From NCBI GenBank assembly GCA_963661945.1, contig CAVLDP010000003.1, positions 61,441-125,440 on the forward strand: a stretch of 64,000 nucleotides of DNA, read 5' to 3'. Of the stretch, positions 6,949 through 15,036 are shown piece after piece; within the stretch, counting starts at the first letter, position 1, and every line of letters starts with the position of its first letter. A model generated the notes under the pieces. That model had not been told where the DNA came from and did no database searches. It saw only the letters and a list, made by a program, of their open reading frames with translations. A program made the translations under genes and the position numbers. The DNA is from Lachnospiraceae bacterium (GTDB taxonomy: Bacteria; Bacillota; Clostridia; Lachnospirales; Lachnospiraceae).

Positions 6949-9948
6949 GTGGAGGTGATTCCAGTGGAACGTACAGGATTAGAAGAATTATATGCAGGAT
7001 TTGAAACAGCCTTTATTGATGGGTCGTTGGCATCGAACATAGCTTATCGGCCTACTTTTGTATCGAATGCGCCTGAAGAGGGAAAGAAGGTAATTTCTAC
7101 GATAGAGGATGAACTTCTATCCTGTGACAGCTTTCAGATTAGTGTAGCCTTCATTACTATGGGAGGTATTACACCTCTTCTACAGACTCTGAAGGAACTG
7201 GAAGATAGGAACATTCCAGGCCAGATTCTCACAACCAATTATCTGAACTTTAGTGAGCCAAGAGCTCTGTCTACGCTAAGTCAGCTTAAGAATATCACTT
7301 TGAAAATGTATGATGTGGAGGAATCCGGAGCAGGATTTCACACGAAGGGTTATATCTTTAAGAAGGACGAAATATATCGCATTATCATTGGCAGCTCTAA
7401 TATGACATCTGCTGCACTTACAGAGAATAAAGAGTGGAACACTAGAATTATCTCTACGGAGCAGGGCGAGATGGCACAGAAGATTGTGCGAGAATTCAGC
7501 ACTTTTTGGGATTCGGACTATGCTTATTCGTATGAGGACTTTATAGAGTCTTATAGCAGAACCTATGAGATTGTCAGGAAACAACGCCAGATTGCCAAAC
7601 AGGATGAAGTTGTTTCTTTAGAGAAATATAAGCTAAAACCTAATTCCATGCAGGTTGGATTTATCGAGAATTTACGTAAGATTGTAGATGCAGGAGAGAA
7701 TAGAGCTCTGCTTATTTCTGCGACAGGAACAGGTAAGACTTATGCTTCTGCATTTGCAATGAGGGAGCTTTCTTTTCAGAGAGTCCTCTTCTTGGTGCAT
7801 AGAGGTCAACTTGCCAGACAGACGATGAAGTCTTATGAGAAGGTTTTTGGACATTCTGTTTCTATGGGACTTTTGGGCGCTGGACATAGAGACTTTGATG
7901 CAGATTATGTATTTGCTACAGTTCAGACCTTGAGCAGGGATGAGCATCTTATGGCTTATAGAGGGGATGAATTTGACTGTATTATTCTTGATGAAGCCCA
8001 CCATGTTCCTGCAGACACCTATCAGAAGATTATGAATCATTTTAGGCCTAAGCTCTGGCTTGGAATGACCGCAACTCCTGACAAAAGAGATGACAATATA
8101 GAAGGGCGTAATGTATATGAGATTTTTCATCATCAGATAGCCTATGAGATTCGTTTGCAGCAGGCTATGGATGAGAATCTTCTGTGTCCATTTCATTATT
8201 TCGGCATTACGGATCTGTCTGTTATCGGAGATGAAGCGGATTCGAGCAGAGATTTTGGTAGACTGACATCTGATGAGCGACTTAAGCATATTATCGATCA
8301 AGCGACTTATTATGGATATAGTGGAGATAAGGTCAAGGGGTTAATTTTCTGCAGTGGTATTCGTGAATCAGAGGAGCTTTCCGCTAAGCTTAATCAGACG
8401 ATAAATCCTGAGACAGGAAGATATTTCCGCACGATTTCTCTAAATGGTAGCGCATCAGAGGAAGAGAGACAGGTTGCCTTTGAACGTCTTGCTATGGATG
8501 AGGATGATGCTAAGGATGGGAAAACTCCGCTGGATTACATCCTGTCCTATGAGATTCTAAATGAAGGCGTCGATATTGTGGAAGTGAATCAGGTCATCAT
8601 GCTTCGTCCGACGGAATCTCCTATTGTCTTCATTCAACAGCTTGGAAGAGGTCTTCGTAAGTCCTATAACAAGGAATATGTTGTGATTTTGGATTTCATT
8701 GGCAATTATCAGAATAACTTTATGATACCGATTGCCCTTTCTGGAGACCGCAGCTACAACAAGGATAATATTCGCCGATACGTTATGGAGGGCGGTCGCG
8801 TGATTCCTGGAGCATCTACGGTGCATTTTGATGCAATCAGTAGAGAGAAGATTTATCAATCTATTGATCGCATGTCTACAACGAAGGCCATGCTTAAGGA
8901 CAAATATTTTGCTCTGAAGGATCGCCTTGGACGAATTCCGACTATCCTTGATTTCTATGAGAATGGAGAGATTGATCCCATGCTCTTTGTCGAGTATTCG
9001 AGGTCCTATGATCAGTTTATTCGACTTGTGGACGTAGAATATAAGATATCATTTTCAGAAGATGAAGAGAAGATACTTGAGTATGTGTCGAATTTCATTA
9101 TGAATGGTAAGCGAATCCACGAGCTTCTAATGCTTAAGCTTCTTCTGAAGGATGGAGAATTCACAGAGGCTTCCTTCCGCGATGAGATGAAGGCCCTACA
9201 CGAGATTTATCGAGAAGAAGACTATTCTTCTGCCTATCATGTTTTAACAGGCGAGTTTCTTAATGCACCTACGGACAAGAACCGATATAGTGATATAGAA
9301 CTAATCTCAACCGTTGGTGCGATGGACCAGAACTACAAGAGAGCGCTCTCTTTCTATGAGAAGCTTAAGAATCAGAATTTTGAGAGAGAATTAGAACGAT
9401 TAGTAGAGTATGGTTTGCTTCGATATAAGGACATTTATCACAACCACGATGAGAATAATCTGGTTCTCTATCAGAAATATTCCAGGAAGGACGTTTGCCG
9501 AATCCTAAACTGGGAGAAGGATAATAGTTCTACAATGTATGGTTATCGAATTAAGTATGGGACTTGTCCGATTTTCGTTACCTATGAGAAGGCAGATGAC
9601 ATTGCAAGCAGTACGAGATATCTGGATGAATTCGAGAAGTTGTCCGAGGAACCTGAGATTCGCAGCAATCGAATCTTCAGTTGGATGACGAGAAGCAAGG
9701 TGACGCTCGATAGTGTGGAAGCGAAGAAATTAATTCACGCCAGGGAAGAAGGACTGAAGGTTCTTCTCTTCCTCAAGAAGAGCGATGGTGAGGGAAGCGA
9801 TTTCTATTATATGGGGCAGGTAGATCCTCTTTCCTGGGAAGAAACGACAATCCTCGATGATAATAAACGCGAGCTACCTATCGTCAATTTTAAGCTCTGC
9901 CTTAGACAGGAAGCCAGAGATGATATCTTTGATTATTTTACAGCTTAG
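6949..9948 (+). CDS. SauUSI-like PLD-nuclease / SF2 helicase / DUF3427 protein (type IV modification-dependent restriction architecture)
   Basis: Single HKD-type motif HTKGYIFKKD..GSSN (His codon 7339-7341). Walker A ATGTGKT (7726-7740). DEAH (7990-8001). TAT motif GMTATP. Motif VI QQLGRGLR. C-terminal YSRKDVCRILNWEK..YGYRIKYGTCPIFVTYEK block is typical of DUF3427. Start is either GTG 6949 or, more likely, GTG 6964, which lies 6 nt after GGAGGTG (6951-6957). Confidence 0.85.
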   Translation: MEVIPVERTGLEELYAGFETAFIDGSLASNIAYRPTFVSNAPEEGKKVISTIEDELLSCDSFQISVAFITMGGITPLLQTLKELEDRNIPGQILTTNYLNFSEPRALSTLSQLKNITLKMYDVEESGAGFHTKGYIFKKDEIYRIIIGSSNMTSAALTENKEWNTRIISTEQGEMAQKIVREFSTFWDSDYAYSYEDFIESYSRTYEIVRKQRQIAKQDEVVSLEKYKLKPNSMQVGFIENLRKIVDAGENRALLISATGTGKTYASAFAMRELSFQRVLFLVHRGQLARQTMKSYEKVFGHSVSMGLLGAGHRDFDADYVFATVQTLSRDEHLMAYRGDEFDCIILDEAHHVPADTYQKIMNHFRPKLWLGMTATPDKRDDNIEGRNVYEIFHHQIAYEIRLQQAMDENLLCPFHYFGITDLSVIGDEADSSRDFGRLTSDERLKHIIDQATYYGYSGDKVKGLIFCSGIRESEELSAKLNQTINPETGRYFRTISLNGSASEEERQVAFERLAMDEDDAKDGKTPLDYILSYEILNEGVDIVEVNQVIMLRPTESPIVFIQQLGRGLRKSYNKEYVVILDFIGNYQNNFMIPIALSGDRSYNKDNIRRYVMEGGRVIPGASTVHFDAISREKIYQSIDRMSTTKAMLKDKYFALKDRLGRIPTILDFYENGEIDPMLFVEYSRSYDQFIRLVDVEYKISFSEDEEKILEYVSNFIMNGKRIHELLMLKLLLKDGEFTEASFRDEMKALHEIYREEDYSSAYHVLTGEFLNAPTDKNRYSDIELISTVGAMDQNYKRALSFYEKLKNQNFERELERLVEYGLLRYKDIYHNHDENNLVLYQKYSRKDVCRILNWEKDNSSTMYGYRIKYGTCPIFVTYEKADDIASSTRYLDEFEKLSEEPEIRSNRIFSWMTRSKVTLDSVEAKKLIHAREEGLKVLLFLKKSDGEGSDFYYMGQVDPLSWEETTILDDNKRELPIVNFKLCLRQEARDDIFDYFTA

Positions 9949-9956
9949 GAGGGAAT

Positions 9957-10364
9957 ATGAAGACAGTACATGTTGTAGCTGCAATTATTCATACATGTGA
10001 CGAGGATGGTAATCCTATTATCTTTGCGACCGAGAGAGGTTATGGTGACTTCAAGGGAGGCTGGGAATTCCCAGGAGGTAAAATAGAAATCGGCGAGACC
10101 AGCGAGGAAGCCTTGGCTCGTGAAATTATGGAAGAATTAGATACAAAGATTGCTGTTGGTGAGCATATTTGTGACATTGAATATGACTACCCTACATTTC
10201 ATCTTTCCATGGAGTGCTTTCTCTGCGAGGTTATTGCAGGAGACCTTGTTCTGAAGGAACATGAGGCAGCGAGATGGCTAAAGCTTGATGAACTTGATAC
10301 GGTTGACTGGCTTCCCGCAGACCAAGACGTAGTAGCCCTATTAAAGGCAGAAGGAATAGAGTAG
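9957..10364 (+). CDS. Nudix hydrolase, MutT/NudG-like (d)NTP pyrophosphohydrolase
   Basis: Nudix box GGWEFPGGKIEIGETSEEALAREIMEELD. 135 aa. AGGAGGG SD. The start is 8 nt after the preceding stop. Confidence 0.9.
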   Translation: MKTVHVVAAIIHTCDEDGNPIIFATERGYGDFKGGWEFPGGKIEIGETSEEALAREIMEELDTKIAVGEHICDIEYDYPTFHLSMECFLCEVIAGDLVLKEHEAARWLKLDELDTVDWLPADQDVVALLKAEGIE

Positions 10365-10381
10365 ATAGAAGAGGCAGAGGG

Positions 10382-12466
10382 ATGAATATGGGGGATGGAA
10401 TTGTTATTCCACATCTTGGAATTCTCGTTACGACATTTTGTAATTTGAACTGTAGGAATTGTGCAGATTTAATTCCTAAGCGAGAGAATTATATTTATGA
10501 ATTTGAGGATATTGTTTCAGATTTGAGTCGTCTGCTTGATAATGTCTCTTCTATTGAGGAAGTGCTGATTATCGGTGGCGAGACACTTATGTATCCTAGG
10601 CTTGAGGAGATTATCGATTTCTGCGGAAGCTGTGACAAGATTCATAAGCTGATCATCACGTCAAATGGTACAATACAGCCTTCGGACGATTTGATGGAAT
10701 GCATAGAGAGAAATCAGGTATGCATGCGTATTAGTGGTTATCCAGAGCATGTGGCACCGAATCGAGTTGATATCCTTGAATCATTTGCAGCTCACGGTAT
10801 TTCGACAGAGGACCTTCGGAACATGACCTGGGCTGATATGGGGGACCGTAAGAAGCGTAATCATACAGAAGCAGAATTACAGCAGATTTTCATGACCTGT
10901 GCTATGGCAAATTGTGTGACGCTGCAGAAGGATGGCCGTATTTTCTACTGCTCGAGATCTATGAGTGCCTACGAGACGGATCTCTATCCAGATATACCGG
11001 CGGAGGAATATATCGATGTCAGGCATGAGGAAGATCTTGCTGCAAGTATTGATAGATTCTTTCATATTCCATATCTTACAACCTGCGATTACTGTGATGG
11101 CATCTCCTGTGCTACAACCAAATATTATCCTGCTGCGACGCAGATTCTGGACAAGGGCATTTTCTTAGAACTGTTGGGACTGGTCTCTAGCCTTCATAGT
11201 GATAGGGAACATGCTGATGTAATAGTGGTGGCAATCAGTCGTATCCTAATTGATTATGCTACAGATTTATATGATTTGGATGATTATCTGATATGCATGC
11301 GTGCAATAGAAGAATTTTTGACTACGCATGGTGATGAGGCTTTTGATAGATTGCTTGAGTCGATGATTCGCCTTACGAATAGCATTACGGATGACTATAA
11401 TTTTGTTGCAAGTGATGATGTAGCATTTACGCGAGAGAACCAAAATCATTCAAGCAGAAATCGGATAACGGTTGGAAGAGTCGGAGGAAGAGGAACAGAA
11501 GAGCTGCTCTTTGATGATGCAGAGATTCTAGAGGAGTTCCACAAGAGATATTCGCTGGATTATGCTGAGTATAATAGGGTTTTCCTCGAGACAGAATTTG
11601 AGCGATTAGAATCTGAAGATATTACGTGTGCTGTTTGTGGACTTTCTTATACGCAATCTGGAATAGTACAGGAATTGATGCCGGTAGGGACAGTGAACCT
11701 GTCGGTGACAGGGCAGGATATTCCTTATTCCCTTCTGATGGCAAGGAAGGCAATTGAGATTCGCCCAGAGATTAGAACACTGATTATTCCGATGACCTAT
11801 TATCATGGCTTCTATGATATTTCATCGGATGATGCATTTATTCATAAGGACATCGTCCGGAGGGTGAACATACCGCTACTTGGTGAAGCGAGAAATTACG
11901 ATTCCTCGGTGGAATATGTGATTGCAGCTAGCGAAGAGCCTACGCTTGAGATTTATGATAGAATCTTTGATTTTCATGAAGTGCAAAAGGAAGTAGAGGC
12001 AGGAATTAGAGAATATCTAGTAGATAAGGATTTCTTCAATGAGATATACCCACAGTCACCATTTGGCGGACTGAAATTCGACTACAAGACCTTGAGCGAG
12101 GAAGAGCGTTTTCAGTCAGCAAAGATTACGGCAGAGTTAAATGAGCGCGTTGTAACGAGTAGCGGTCAGGAAGAGGTCGCGAAATACCTAAGAGAACTTC
12201 TTCCAGAATTAACGAAGGATGGAAGACGCGTGATCTTCTTCCTCCCTCCGATGACGAAATATCTATATGCAGCCTATAGTGATGAGCTGAAGAATAATTT
12301 CAGAGATCAGACGCTTCCTCTTCTTAGTGAATTTGATAATGTATTCTTCTATGATTTCGCGCAGCATGAGATTTTTATGGAAAATGATTTCAATGATTAT
12401 GAACATTTGAATTATAATGGTGGAGTGAAGCTGACGAAGCTTCTTGCAGAACTTATCGAGAGATGA
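10382..12466 (+). CDS. Radical SAM enzyme with SPASM/twitch-like Cys cluster fused to a ~430-aa C-terminal region ending in a DltD/SGNH-like domain
   Basis: CNLNCRNC (CX3CX2C, 10439-10462) and GGETLMYP. Auxiliary Cys pattern C173/C178/C190 (C..G-x4-C) and CDYCDGISC (C235/C238/C243). C-terminal VCGLSY (candidate GxS nucleophile, S422) and DYEHLNYNG (D-x-x-H-L...G as in DltD; Asp codon 12395-12397). ATG 10388 has better SD spacing than ATG 10382. Confidence 0.75.
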   Translation: MNMGDGIVIPHLGILVTTFCNLNCRNCADLIPKRENYIYEFEDIVSDLSRLLDNVSSIEEVLIIGGETLMYPRLEEIIDFCGSCDKIHKLIITSNGTIQPSDDLMECIERNQVCMRISGYPEHVAPNRVDILESFAAHGISTEDLRNMTWADMGDRKKRNHTEAELQQIFMTCAMANCVTLQKDGRIFYCSRSMSAYETDLYPDIPAEEYIDVRHEEDLAASIDRFFHIPYLTTCDYCDGISCATTKYYPAATQILDKGIFLELLGLVSSLHSDREHADVIVVAISRILIDYATDLYDLDDYLICMRAIEEFLTTHGDEAFDRLLESMIRLTNSITDDYNFVASDDVAFTRENQNHSSRNRITVGRVGGRGTEELLFDDAEILEEFHKRYSLDYAEYNRVFLETEFERLESEDITCAVCGLSYTQSGIVQELMPVGTVNLSVTGQDIPYSLLMARKAIEIRPEIRTLIIPMTYYHGFYDISSDDAFIHKDIVRRVNIPLLGEARNYDSSVEYVIAASEEPTLEIYDRIFDFHEVQKEVEAGIREYLVDKDFFNEIYPQSPFGGLKFDYKTLSEEERFQSAKITAELNERVVTSSGQEEVAKYLRELLPELTKDGRRVIFFLPPMTKYLYAAYSDELKNNFRDQTLPLLSEFDNVFFYDFAQHEIFMENDFNDYEHLNYNGGVKLTKLLAELIER

Positions 12467-12482: not shown

Positions 12483-12788
12483 ATGGTAAAGCATATTATT
12501 GTATGGACACTGAAGGATGAATACGATGGAGAGAAAAAGGCTGAGATTCTAAGGGGCATGAAGGAGAATCTGGAAGGCTTAAAGGGACAGGTGCCGGGCC
12601 TTCTCGAGATCAAGGTTGAGACGAAAGGCCTAGCTTCTTCAACGGGGGATTGCATGCTTGATACGACTCTTGAGAGCGAGGAAGCTCTGAAGGCATATGC
12701 GATTCATCCAGCACATGTTGCTGTAGCGGATACTTATGTTCGCCCATATACAGCAATTAGAAGCTGCTTTGACTATGTGATTCATTGA
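12483..12788 (+). CDS. Dabb (stress-responsive alpha/beta barrel) family protein
   Basis: 101 aa. MVKHIIVWTLKDE...LKAYAIHPAHVAV pattern is typical of Dabb domains. AGGAGGG SD. The start is 16 nt after the rSAM stop. Confidence 0.75.
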   Translation: MVKHIIVWTLKDEYDGEKKAEILRGMKENLEGLKGQVPGLLEIKVETKGLASSTGDCMLDTTLESEEALKAYAIHPAHVAVADTYVRPYTAIRSCFDYVIH

Positions 12789-12846
12789 ATTCATATAATA
12801 ATTAGTGTAAGATTATTATATTGTAATGTATTTGGGAGAAGAGATA

Positions 12847-13122
12847 ATGACTAGAATAGAGCCACTAAGCAAGAACACCTCGCTTGAAGAACTTGAGAAT
12901 ATGATGAAGGTTGGACACGTAGTAGTTTTGCCATTCAAGGTTGCACAGAATGTCTACATTATTCAGAACCATAAGCCACAGAAGGTTATGGTTACGGATA
13001 TCAGCATGGTTGGTGTGCAGCTGAATGGTGTATTCTCTACGTGGGAATCCATCGAGGATAATGGTGGAATCTATGTATCAGAGTATGATGCATTGTCCGC
13101 TATGGCTGCTCGTGGTTTATAG
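12847..13122 (+). CDS. Hypothetical 91-aa protein
   Basis: GGGAGAAGAG SD before ATG 12847; the track start at 12826 has no SD. No recognisable motif. Confidence 0.55.
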   Translation: MTRIEPLSKNTSLEELENMMKVGHVVVLPFKVAQNVYIIQNHKPQKVMVTDISMVGVQLNGVFSTWESIEDNGGIYVSEYDALSAMAARGL

Positions 13123-15000: not shown

Positions 15001-15007
15001 AGAAAAA

Positions 15008-15031
15008 AGCATCAAGCGTTTGCTTGATGCT
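15008..15031. terminator. Hairpin AGCATCAAGC-GTTT-GCTTGATGCT; strong terminator for the minus-strand tRNA, weaker for the plus-strand GDPD gene
   Basis: 10-bp perfect stem. The A6 run at 15003-15008 gives a U-run on the minus strand. Only TT follows on the plus strand. Confidence 0.7.
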
Positions 15032-15036
15032 TAAAA

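What the first reader, a model, noticed from the sequence alone, without database searches (positions are those of the whole stretch)
10382..12466. Radical SAM/SPASM-like enzyme fused to a DltD/SGNH-like domain through a ~150-aa helical linker
Residues 1-260 carry a canonical CX3CX2C cluster (CNLNCRNC), GGE motif and a second Cys set (C..G-x4-C and CDYCDGISC) like the auxiliary-cluster domains of SPASM/twitch enzymes. Residues ~410-694 contain VCGLSY and a terminal DYEHLNYNG, which aligns with the D-x-x-H-L-x-x-x-G catalytic motif of DltD-type SGNH acyl-transfer/esterase proteins. A single polypeptide combining radical chemistry with an SGNH-type acyl hydrolase/transferase is not an architecture I can name. 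The substrate could be a peptide, a nucleotide or an envelope polymer, and cannot be deduced from sequence.
Basis: partly seen in the sequence, partly recalled or inferred. Interest (0 to 1): 0.7.

Follow-up and report, generated by a model that had tools for sequence, protein, structure and literature searches.

The report
Radical-SAM sugar enzyme fused to DltD-like esterase
This is a real, uncharacterised two-enzyme fusion found only in gut Lachnospiraceae: a radical-SAM sugar-modifying domain joined to a DltD-like acyl-transfer/esterase domain, which in most relatives sits in the gene islands that decorate flagellin with unusual sugars.

Summary
It is not a frameshift artefact: about 50 full-length homologues (31-58% identity) have the same architecture.

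- **N-terminal domain (aa 1-255).** This is a twitch radical-SAM domain. Its closest solved relative is SpeY, a sugar dehydrogenase (Foldseek E 1e-11, TM 0.69). An invariant fifth cysteine, C178, sits where the non-SpeY clade of that family has Cys and SpeY has Ser. From memory, that position is the HygY epimerase H-donor cysteine.
- **C-terminal domain (aa ~370-694).** This is an SGNH fold, and its top three PDB matches are DltD. Ser422, Asp672 and His675 are near-universal in 140 distant relatives.
- **The "linker".** It is a structured subdomain, also kept by unfused radical-SAM relatives.
- **Genomic context.** Relatives lie in Lachnospiraceae flagellin-glycosylation islands. An FdtA-like cupin lies within 2.7 kb in nine of eleven full-length loci outside the window's species, usually with a DegT aminotransferase. 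The window copy is displaced: it sits between NUDIX and Dabb genes, with no glycan genes in 64 kb.

My best reading is a bifunctional tailoring enzyme for amino-deoxy nucleotide sugars, combining radical epimerisation or oxidation with acyl transfer or hydrolysis. The substrate is unproven. I class it as a new variant of known kinds, of moderate to high interest.

The parts
10382..12466 (+). Whole ORF, 694 aa: fusion of a twitch radical-SAM domain, a helical/beta subdomain and a DltD-like SGNH domain
   Evidence: ORF list. About 50 full-length homologues. AF2 model with pLDDT 93.3 and pTM 0.83.
10382..10876 (+). Radical-SAM core (aa 1-165), partial TIM barrel
   Evidence: Pfam PF04055 on aa 15-123, 32.9 bits against GA 29.5. 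Foldseek matches to SpeY, MoaA, BtrN and viperin.
10439..10462 (+). CX3CX2C motif (C20, C24, C27), ligands of the SAM-binding [4Fe-4S] cluster
   Evidence: Invariant in 56 sequences.
10574..10582 (+). GGE motif (G65-G66-E67), which contacts the SAM amino group
   Evidence: Invariant.
10877..11146 (+). Twitch auxiliary-cluster domain (aa 166-255). C173, C190, C235 and C238 are the presumed cluster ligands. C178 is an extra invariant Cys at the start of the beta-hairpin.
   Evidence: All five Cys are invariant. C173 and C190 align to SpeY Cys. C178 corresponds to the Cys/Ser-183 position of the SpeY/HygY family. DSSP strands 178-181 and 186-189.
11147..11488 (+).
   Evidence: Helices 258-336 and strands 340-377 with high pLDDT. 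Retained in the unfused homologue P0061, which aligns to aa 373. No PDB or Pfam match.
11489..12463 (+). DltD-like SGNH domain (aa ~370-694)
   Evidence: hhalign with the standalone relative P0075, probability 100%, aa 373-694. Foldseek top three matches are DltD 3bma, 6o93 and 7dxm, followed by PAF-AH and PatB. 3958 relatives among the representatives.
11639..11662 (+). SGNH block I, G420-L-S422-Y-T-Q-S-G427, with the presumed nucleophile Ser422 directly after beta-strand 416-420
   Evidence: Invariant in the family. Among 140 distant representatives, G is 135/135 and S is 133/135.
12395..12406 (+). SGNH block V, D672-Y-E-H675, the presumed acid/base pair of the triad
   Evidence: Invariant. 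D is 137/140 and H is 138/140 among distant representatives.
9957..10364 (+). Upstream NUDIX (MutT-like) gene, 18 bp before the ORF. Probably co-transcribed; a functional link is unproven.
   Evidence: Pfam NUDIX E 7e-17. TIGR00586 scores 87 bits, below its 97.9 cut-off. The same neighbour is present in a second assembly, L060. No terminator-like hairpin with a clean T tract between 6363 and 15007.
12483..12788 (+). Downstream Dabb (stress-responsive alpha/beta barrel) gene, 17 bp after the stop. Probably co-transcribed; a functional link is unproven.
   Evidence: Pfam PF07876 E 1e-18. Conserved neighbour in L060.

Best explanation
The protein is a cytoplasmic, bifunctional tailoring enzyme for amino-deoxy sugars that end up in flagellin or surface glycans of Lachnospiraceae.

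**Step 1 (inferred from family chemistry).** The N-terminal [4Fe-4S] cluster on C20/C24/C27 reductively cleaves SAM. The resulting 5'-deoxyadenosyl radical abstracts a hydrogen from a sugar ring carbon that carries OH or NH.

**Step 2 (inferred).** The twitch auxiliary cluster (C173, C190, C235, C238) sits next to the substrate. The invariant free cysteine C178 returns a hydrogen atom to the opposite face, which gives epimerisation as in HygY and NeoN. If that step fails, the radical is oxidised to a ketone, as in SpeY and BtrN.

**Step 3 (inferred from fold and conserved triad).** The C-terminal DltD-like SGNH domain uses Ser422, His675 and Asp672 to form an acyl-enzyme. It then transfers or removes an ester-linked acyl group on the same sugar or glycan.

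**Likely substrate (inferred from neighbours in relatives).** A dTDP-3-amino- or 3-acylamido-3,6-dideoxyhexose-type nucleotide sugar, made by the adjacent FdtA-like cupin and DegT aminotransferase.

**This window.** The gene has moved out of such an island. It lies in a NUDIX / rSAM-SGNH / Dabb unit, and would have to act in trans on a pathway encoded elsewhere in the genome.
For: **Shown**
- The radical-SAM domain passes the Pfam threshold.
- SpeY, a twitch radical-SAM sugar dehydrogenase, is the best relative by sequence (E 5e-6) and by structure (E 1e-11, TM 0.69 over 259 columns).
- The other structural relatives, BtrN, BlsE, AbmM, viperin and MoaA, all act on sugars or nucleotides.
- Five Cys after the core are invariant in 56 sequences.
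- In the SpeY family, native position 183 is Ser or Ala in the SpeY clade (37 sequences) and Cys in the more distant clade (27 sequences). My family has Cys at the start of the same hairpin in 61 of 61 sequences.
- The paper title cited says that HygY changes from epimerase to dehydrogenase on mutation of one cysteine.
- The C-terminal model (pLDDT 90) matches DltD first and other SGNH enzymes next.
- S, D and H are conserved at 98% or more in 140 distant representatives.
- The same domain is fused to GT1, GT2 and TagF-like glycan enzymes, which are cytoplasmic-type enzymes. I saw no signal peptide or TM segment in the translation.

**Context**
- An FdtA-like cupin lies within 2.7 kb in nine of eleven full-length loci outside the window's species.
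- The cupin is 2-30 bp from the gene in L001, L007, L061 and L062.
- A DegT gene lies within 6 kb in seven of them. Flagellin, FliD or glycosyltransferase genes are nearby.
- Unfused radical-SAM relatives in L016-L019 keep the FdtA/DegT link.
- In L061 the gene plus the cupin lie between two ~1.64-kb IS copies.
Against: - No biochemical data exist for any member.
- The window copy has no FdtA, DegT, flagellin or glycosyltransferase gene within 64 kb, so the context argument is borrowed from homologues of 58% identity or less.
- One lineage (L009/L012) has flagellins but no FdtA or DegT nearby.
- The equivalence of C178 with the family's Cys183 column rests on the hairpin register. My family has C-x11-C and the SpeY family has C-x10-C. 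MAFFT placed C178 three columns away from that column, and I could not superpose coordinates.
- That HygY's cysteine is residue 183 is from memory; only the paper title was seen.
- The direction of the SGNH reaction (transfer or hydrolysis) and its acyl donor are unknown.
- The standalone relatives' DltA-like and carrier-like partners are absent from the fused loci.
- Identity to SpeY is only 21%.
Confidence: 0.45

Rival explanations
1. Same bifunctional sugar-tailoring role, but the radical-SAM domain is a dehydrogenase like SpeY or BtrN. It would oxidise a sugar secondary alcohol to a ketone, possibly to feed the neighbouring DegT aminotransferase as BtrN feeds BtrS, rather than act as an epimerase.
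For: The closest solved relative, SpeY, is a dehydrogenase, and BtrN is also among the matches. A DegT aminotransferase is near the gene in most relatives. The HygY paper title shows that the two outcomes differ by a single residue.
Against: The family keeps an invariant fifth Cys (C178) at the hairpin position where the SpeY dehydrogenase clade has Ser or Ala. The FdtA-like cupin already supplies a keto-sugar for DegT, and most loci have only one DegT gene.
Confidence: 0.2
2. The enzyme works on the finished glycoprotein. It would modify flagellin-bound glycan, or flagellin residues themselves, rather than a nucleotide sugar.
For: In L009/L012 the gene is flanked directly by flagellin genes (162 bp away) with no FdtA or DegT. 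Flagellin genes are within 3 kb in L004, L010 and L015.
Against: There is no peptide-recognition (RRE-like) domain, and the radical-SAM core starts at residue ~10. The closest structural relatives act on small sugar or nucleotide substrates. The tightest partner is the FdtA-like cupin, a nucleotide-sugar enzyme family.
Confidence: 0.1
3. The C-terminal domain works as a true DltD-type transferase. It would take an acyl or aminoacyl group from a phosphopantetheinyl carrier protein loaded by a DltA-like ligase encoded elsewhere. The radical-SAM domain would modify that acyl group or its acceptor.
For: The three standalone relatives whose neighbourhoods were examined (P0075, P0079, P0080) each sit near a ~510-aa AMP-binding enzyme and a 70-72-aa protein with a WDSL motif and a sub-threshold PP-binding match. 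DltD structures are the top structural matches.
Against: No AMP-binding or carrier gene was found in any fused-family locus or in the 64-kb window. No DltB/MBOAT gene was seen. The Pfam DltD model does not hit the window protein itself.
Confidence: 0.1
4. It is a SPASM/twitch peptide (RiPP) maturase with an accessory hydrolase domain.
For: There are weak N-terminal NCBIfam matches to RiPP maturases (ryptide, PapB, ScmE/F), all far below their cut-offs. SuiB, anSME and SkfB are among the Foldseek matches.
Against: Those matches cover only the generic radical-SAM core. There is no SPASM Pfam hit and no seven-Cys motif. No precursor-peptide context was seen in any of about a dozen loci. The best match by a wide margin is a sugar enzyme.
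Confidence: 0.03

Closest known systems
SpeY (spectinomycin) and HygY (hygromycin B): twitch radical-SAM sugar dehydrogenase and epimerase; PDB 7WZV, 7WZX, 7X0B
   Same: - Radical-SAM core plus a single auxiliary-cluster twitch domain.
- Best sequence and structure match.
- Two twitch Cys align with SpeY Cys.
- A Cys sits at the start of the twitch hairpin, as in the Cys-183 clade of that family.
- Small carbohydrate substrates.
   Different: - Only 21% identity.
- The hairpin loop differs by one residue, and there are three fewer residues after the first twitch Cys.
- It carries an extra ~115-aa helical/beta subdomain and a 325-aa SGNH domain.
- It occurs in Firmicutes glycan islands rather than actinomycete aminoglycoside clusters.
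BtrN (butirosin), the founding twitch radical-SAM dehydrogenase; PDB 4M7T
   Same: - Twitch architecture, and it is a Foldseek match (E 3e-4).
- The spacing of the four presumed auxiliary-cluster Cys is similar. This comparison is from memory of BtrN C169, C188, C232 and C235.
- It is paired with a DegT-family aminotransferase in its pathway.
   Different: - Lower structural similarity than SpeY.
- No fifth conserved Cys.
- It is a single-domain protein.
DltD (D-alanyl-lipoteichoic acid biosynthesis); PDB 3BMA, 6O93, 7DXM; Pfam PF04914
   Same: - SGNH-type fold, and the top three Foldseek matches.
- C-terminal DxxH and N-terminal G-x-S motifs.
- The Pfam DltD model passes its threshold on the last ~90 aa of some homologues.
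- Standalone relatives are encoded near a DltA-like ligase and a DltC-like carrier.
   Different: - The window protein gets no Pfam DltD hit.
- No N-terminal membrane anchor was seen in the translation, and the radical-SAM fusion implies a cytoplasmic location.
- No dltA, dltB or dltC nearby.
- TM-scores are moderate (0.35-0.46).
NeuA C-terminal O-acetylesterase domain (CMP-sialic acid synthetase of group B Streptococcus and E. coli K1); recalled from the literature, not tested here
   Same: A cytoplasmic SGNH/PAF-AH-like domain fused to a nucleotide-sugar pathway enzyme. It is a precedent for trimming O-acyl groups on activated sugars. PAF-AH is among the best structural matches.
   Different: The fusion partner is different (a cytidylyltransferase, not radical SAM). 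No sequence comparison was made here.

Membership tests
Radical SAM superfamily (PF04055) | CX3CX2C cluster motif and a profile match above the curated threshold | tested here: met
   C20-x3-C24-x2-C27 is invariant. PF04055 scores 32.9 bits against GA 29.5.
Radical SAM superfamily (PF04055) | SAM-binding GGE motif and a partial TIM-barrel fold | tested here: met
   G65-G66-E67 is invariant. Foldseek matches to many radical-SAM structures.
Radical SAM superfamily (PF04055) | Reductive cleavage of SAM to 5'-deoxyadenosine | not testable with these tools
   This needs anaerobic reconstitution.
Twitch subclass (BtrN/SpeY type) | A short C-terminal extension with one auxiliary [4Fe-4S] cluster on four Cys, including a beta-hairpin | tested here: met
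   C173, C190, C235 and C238 are invariant. Hairpin strands at 178-181 and 186-189. 259 columns align to SpeY with TM 0.69. Cluster binding itself is inferred.
SPASM domain (PF13186, two auxiliary clusters) | Seven-Cys motif including CX2CX5CX3C, and a Pfam or TIGR SPASM match | tested here: not met
   No SPASM hit at E<=1. Only five conserved Cys are present, and C243 varies.
HygY/NeoN-type radical-SAM sugar epimerases | A non-ligand Cys positioned to donate a hydrogen atom to the substrate radical | tested here: inconclusive
   C178 is invariant and lies at the start of the twitch hairpin, where the Cys-183 clade of the SpeY family has Cys. The register differs by one residue, coordinates could not be superposed, and HygY's residue number is from memory.
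SGNH hydrolase superfamily | Three-layer alpha/beta/alpha fold with a block I Ser after strand 1 and a block V DxxH | tested here: met
   Foldseek matches to DltD, PAF-AH, PatB, TAP and CE2. G420-x-S422 follows strand 416-420. D672-x-x-H675 is present. Conservation is 98% or more in 140 representatives.
SGNH hydrolase superfamily | Block II Gly and block III Asn oxyanion-hole residues | tested here: inconclusive
   The candidates G427, N439, D446, D479 and N587 are conserved. They could not be assigned without model coordinates.
DltD family (PF04914) | A match to the DltD profile above threshold | tested here: not met
   The window protein has no hit at E<=1. Homologues P0009 (28.0 bits) and P0045 (23.6), and the standalone relative P0080 (24.1), pass GA 22.7, but only over the last ~90-110 residues.
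DltD family (PF04914) | N-terminal membrane anchor with an extracytoplasmic catalytic domain | tested here: not met
   I saw no hydrophobic N-terminal segment in the translation. The N-terminus is the radical-SAM core.
DltD family (PF04914) | Encoded with dltA, dltB and dltC | tested here: not met
   No AMP-binding or carrier gene in the window or in the fused-family loci. Standalone relatives do have DltA-like and carrier-like neighbours.
Flagellin-glycosylation island gene | Located among flagellin, glycosyltransferase and nucleotide-sugar genes | tested here: not met
   This holds for most homologues. It does not hold for the window copy or its near-identical copy in L060.

The most novel reading that the evidence does not exclude
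The two active sites act as one machine on a single sugar. Radical inversion at an unactivated stereocentre would be coupled to acyl transfer by the SGNH domain. The product would be an acylated amino-deoxy sugar of a configuration not yet described in bacterial glycoproteins. That sugar would tune how gut Lachnospiraceae flagellins are seen by TLR5 and by anti-flagellin antibodies. The NUDIX/Dabb-linked copy in this window would then be a second use of the same enzyme outside flagellar glycosylation.
Probability: 0.15. Interest if true: 0.8.

Novelty: new variant of a known kind. Interest (0 to 1): 0.58.

Why it matters
- **New setting for radical-SAM sugar chemistry.** From my own knowledge, radical-SAM sugar epimerases and dehydrogenases are known mainly from actinomycete aminoglycoside pathways. 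A relative embedded in the flagellin-glycan islands of abundant gut commensals (Roseburia and other Lachnospiraceae) would extend that chemistry to protein glycosylation.
- **Host relevance.** From my own knowledge, not tested here: Lachnospiraceae flagellins are prominent antigens in inflammatory bowel disease and are TLR5 ligands. Enzymes that shape their glycans could therefore matter for host recognition.
- **A large untouched domain family.** The C-terminal domain belongs to a family of 3958 clusters at E<=1e-3, and the members examined look cytoplasmic. Members are fused to glycosyltransferases or paired with DltA-like and DltC-like proteins. This points to a Dlt-like acylation route that works without a membrane MBOAT partner.
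- **Testable residues.** C178, S422 and H675 can be mutated directly.

Tried and rejected
- **Frameshift or fusion artefact.** Rejected: about 50 full-length homologues exist.
- **Exact look-up of the window protein.** Nothing was on record. A near-identical copy, P0209, was found later and has the same neighbours.
- **Glycan and flagellar genes in the window.** tblastn with flagellin, FdtA, DegT, formyltransferase, glycosyltransferases, NeuB, FliD and FliS found nothing.
- **Split-gene counterpart for the SGNH domain.** I tested the unannotated 432-aa and 280-aa neighbours of the unfused homologue P0061. Neither is DltD-like.
- **Direct sequence link to DltD structures.** A profile search of PDB sequences with the C-terminal domain found no DltD hit. 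The link rests on fold and on Pfam partial hits.
- **NCBIfam naming.** No model comes near its cut-off.
- **Literature.** Searches for PDB code 7WZV, for SpeY, for HygY, for radical SAM with flagellin glycosylation, and for Lachnospiraceae flagellin glycosylation found nothing on this family. The SpeY and HygY papers are not held.
- **PF27429.** This family is precomputed on this protein and on C-terminal fragments. It is not in the held Pfam copy, so its definition is unknown.
- **Model coordinates.** They are not exposed, so the triad geometry, the C178-to-SAM distance and the domain interface could not be measured.
- **RiPP maturase reading.** Rejected, as set out under the rival explanations.
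Full report
**Observation**

The ORF at 10382-12466 (+) encodes 694 aa. These are CNLNCRNC (C20/C24/C27), GGE (65-67), C178...G185-x4-C190, C235-DY-C238-DGIS-C243, VCGLSY (S422) and DYEHLNYNG (D672/H675).

Pfam Radical_SAM matches aa 15-123 above its gathering score (32.9 against 29.5 bits). The held Pfam copy gives no hit for the C-terminal half. No NCBIfam model comes near its cut-off.

A search of 5.8 billion proteins found 68 relatives. About 50 of them are 680-715 aa long and cover 98-100% of the query at 31-58% identity. The architecture is therefore a genuine fusion, not two genes joined by a frameshift.

In 23 full-length members the invariant residues are C20, C24, C27, GGE, C173, C178, G185, C190, C235, C238, G420, S422, D672 and H675. 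C243 is not invariant.

**Structure**

An AlphaFold2 model built on 56 sequences is confident (pLDDT 93.3, pTM 0.83). Three parts can be distinguished.

- **aa 1-255, radical-SAM core plus twitch extension.** Foldseek against the PDB puts SpeY, 'a Twitch Radical SAM Dehydrogenase', far ahead of everything else (E 1e-11, TM 0.69 normalised to SpeY, 259 columns, 21% identity). MoaA, SuiB, BtrN, anSME, viperin, BlsE and AbmM follow. SpeY is also the only significant PDB match by sequence.
- **aa ~256-369, helical bundle plus small beta unit.** It has no match in the PDB or Pfam. Unfused 385-430-aa homologues keep it (P0061 aligns through aa 373). It belongs to the radical-SAM module and is not a passive linker.
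- **aa ~370-694, SGNH domain.** I modelled it separately (pLDDT 90). Its three best PDB matches are DltD structures (3BMA, 6O93, 7DXM; E 9e-6 to 1e-4). Next come the SGNH enzymes PAF-acetylhydrolase, PatB, EstL5 and TAP. The Pfam DltD model passes its threshold on the last ~90 residues of homologues P0009 and P0045 and of the standalone relative P0080. DUF1574 gives sub-threshold hits.

**The radical-SAM domain: epimerase or dehydrogenase?**

SpeY aligns Cys to C173 and C190, but not to C178. I searched with the SpeY fragment and examined the twitch hairpin in 87 relatives.

The SpeY clade reads C175-x7-S/A183-x10-C194 (37 sequences). A more distant clade has Cys at position 183 (27 sequences). 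The title of the HygY paper, seen, states that HygY is a twitch epimerase that becomes a dehydrogenase on mutation of a single cysteine. My recollection, not verified here, is that this residue is C183.

In the present family the fifth invariant Cys, C178, is the first residue of the same hairpin strand (DSSP strand 178-181). It lies 12 residues before the cluster ligand C190, against 11 in the SpeY family, and it is present in 61 of 61 members.

I therefore favour a HygY/NeoN-like epimerase mechanism, with dehydrogenation as the main alternative. MAFFT did not put C178 in the Cys-183 column, and I could not superpose coordinates. This step remains an inference.

**The SGNH domain**

A profile of aa 385-694 searched against 1.84 billion representatives found 3958 proteins at E<=1e-3 and 1539 at E<=1e-10. 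In the top-150 list, only members about 680-705 aa long (roughly ten, about fifteen counting shorter family members) belong to the radical-SAM fusion family.

Most of the rest are standalone proteins of 300-500 aa. Others are fusions to GT1, GT2, TagF-like glycerophosphotransferase, or methyltransferase/TPR modules.

Across 140 representatives the conservation is as follows:

| Position | Conserved in |
|---|---|
| G420 | 135/135 |
| S422 | 133/135 |
| G427 | 133/138 |
| D672 | 137/140 |
| H675 | 138/140 |

This is the SGNH block I (G-x-S-x4-G) and block V (DxxH) signature, and it implies a catalytic Ser-His-Asp triad.

None of the sequences I inspected has an N-terminal membrane anchor, and a radical-SAM fusion must be cytoplasmic.

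The three standalone relatives whose neighbourhoods I examined each lie near a ~510-aa AMP-binding enzyme and a 70-72-aa protein. That small protein carries a WDSL motif and a sub-threshold PP-binding match. In other words, a DltA-like ligase and a DltC-like carrier are present, and no DltB was seen. This fits acyl transfer from a carrier thioester for the wider family. The fused members and the window lack such partners, so transfer versus hydrolysis remains open for this protein.

**Genomic context**

Full-length members occur only in Lachnospiraceae, in Roseburia and unnamed MAGs. They sit in flagellin-glycosylation islands that hold:

- flagellin genes, with FliD and FliS in some loci;
- Glyco_tranf_2_5 and Glyco_trans_1_2 glycosyltransferases;
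- an FdtA-like cupin;
- a DegT aminotransferase;
- formyl-, GNAT- or FemAB-like acyltransferases;
- in one lineage, PseG (above its cut-off), a PseH-like protein and NeuB.

The FdtA-like cupin lies within 2.7 kb in nine of eleven full-length loci outside the window's species. It is 2-30 bp from the gene in L001, L007, L061 and L062. The unfused radical-SAM relatives in L016-L019 keep the FdtA/DegT link.

In L061 the gene plus the cupin lie between two identical ~1.64-kb IS copies, as a mobile two-gene unit would. These neighbours make 3-amino-3,6-dideoxyhexose nucleotide sugars (established FdtA/FdtB chemistry), which is the most likely substrate class.

**The window copy is an exception**

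No flagellin, FdtA, DegT or glycosyltransferase homologue occurs in the 64 kb. The gene lies 18 bp after a MutT-like NUDIX gene and 17 bp before a Dabb gene. A DUF3427 helicase/PLD gene is upstream and a membrane GDPD gene is downstream.

The scan found terminator-like sites at 6318-6363 and 15007-15032. Between them it reported only short hairpins without a clean T tract.

The same arrangement is present in a second assembly (L060). A chemoreceptor gene at 15266-17272, recognised by eye in the translation, suggests a motile organism. All invariant residues are intact, so the copy is probably functional and would act in trans, or on another substrate.

**Comparison and novelty**

The protein works like SpeY, HygY or BtrN joined to a DltD-type SGNH enzyme. 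It fails the membership tests for DltD proper: no profile hit on this protein, no membrane anchor and no dltABC genes. It also fails the test for SPASM.

Database names are 'DltD' or 'hypothetical protein'. Literature searches found nothing on the family. An uncharted Pfam entry, PF27429, is precomputed on it.

I class it as a new variant of known kinds. It is rare, lineage-restricted and biochemically untested, and it offers clear residues to mutate.

Noticed in passing
L061:6332-12156: The family gene (8001-10076) and the FdtA-like cupin (10079-10483) lie between two direct, essentially identical ~1.64-kb IS copies (DUF772 plus DDE_Tnp_1_2), like a composite transposon. A fragmented second copy of the family gene lies upstream (3392-4914).
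   Followed up: partly
L055:1613-4802; L057:527-3925; L059:4265-8095: Standalone, apparently cytoplasmic DltD-like proteins are each encoded near a DltA-like AMP-binding enzyme and a 70-72-aa WDSL carrier-like protein, with no MBOAT/DltB in view. This looks like a possible membrane-independent Dlt-like acylation system. L057 also has a flagellin fragment next door.
   Followed up: partly
P0227-P0296 (SpeY family; native SpeY position 183): The SpeY clade has Ser or Ala at position 183 (37 sequences), while a more distant clade has Cys (27 sequences). This split may separate dehydrogenases from epimerases within that family.
   Followed up: partly
L001:13333-14436: A standalone 367-aa paralogue of the C-terminal SGNH domain (23% identity, E 1e-14) sits in the same flagellin-glycan island as a fused family member. 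It lies next to metallophosphoesterase and PEP-mutase/cytidylyltransferase genes.
   Followed up: no
L053:9386-15520: The unfused radical-SAM homologue P0061, in a genome with BamA/TamB-like genes, lies beside a cluster with FkbH, a methyltransferase, two small carrier proteins, an AMP-binding enzyme related to those paired with the DltD-like proteins (36-40% identity), KR and KAS III genes.
   Followed up: no
window 6949-9948: A 999-aa protein combines an N-terminal PLD-like nuclease domain, a ResIII/helicase core and a C-terminal DUF3427. It lies directly upstream of the NUDIX gene, and the arrangement is conserved in L060.
   Followed up: no
window 480-5327 and 15266-17272: There is a 1615-aa hybrid sensor kinase with a large N-terminal repeat region. 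There is also a methyl-accepting chemotaxis protein, which suggests the organism is motile even though no flagellar genes lie in the window. Both were recognised by eye in the translations.
   Followed up: no
window 1-64000: Most long ORFs are on the + strand, and GC skew is positive in every 2-kb bin. The whole window appears to lie on one replichore's leading strand.
   Followed up: no
window 12826-13122: A 98-aa ORF between the Dabb and GDPD genes has no Pfam or NCBIfam match. A 91-aa ORF is present at the same place in L060.
   Followed up: no
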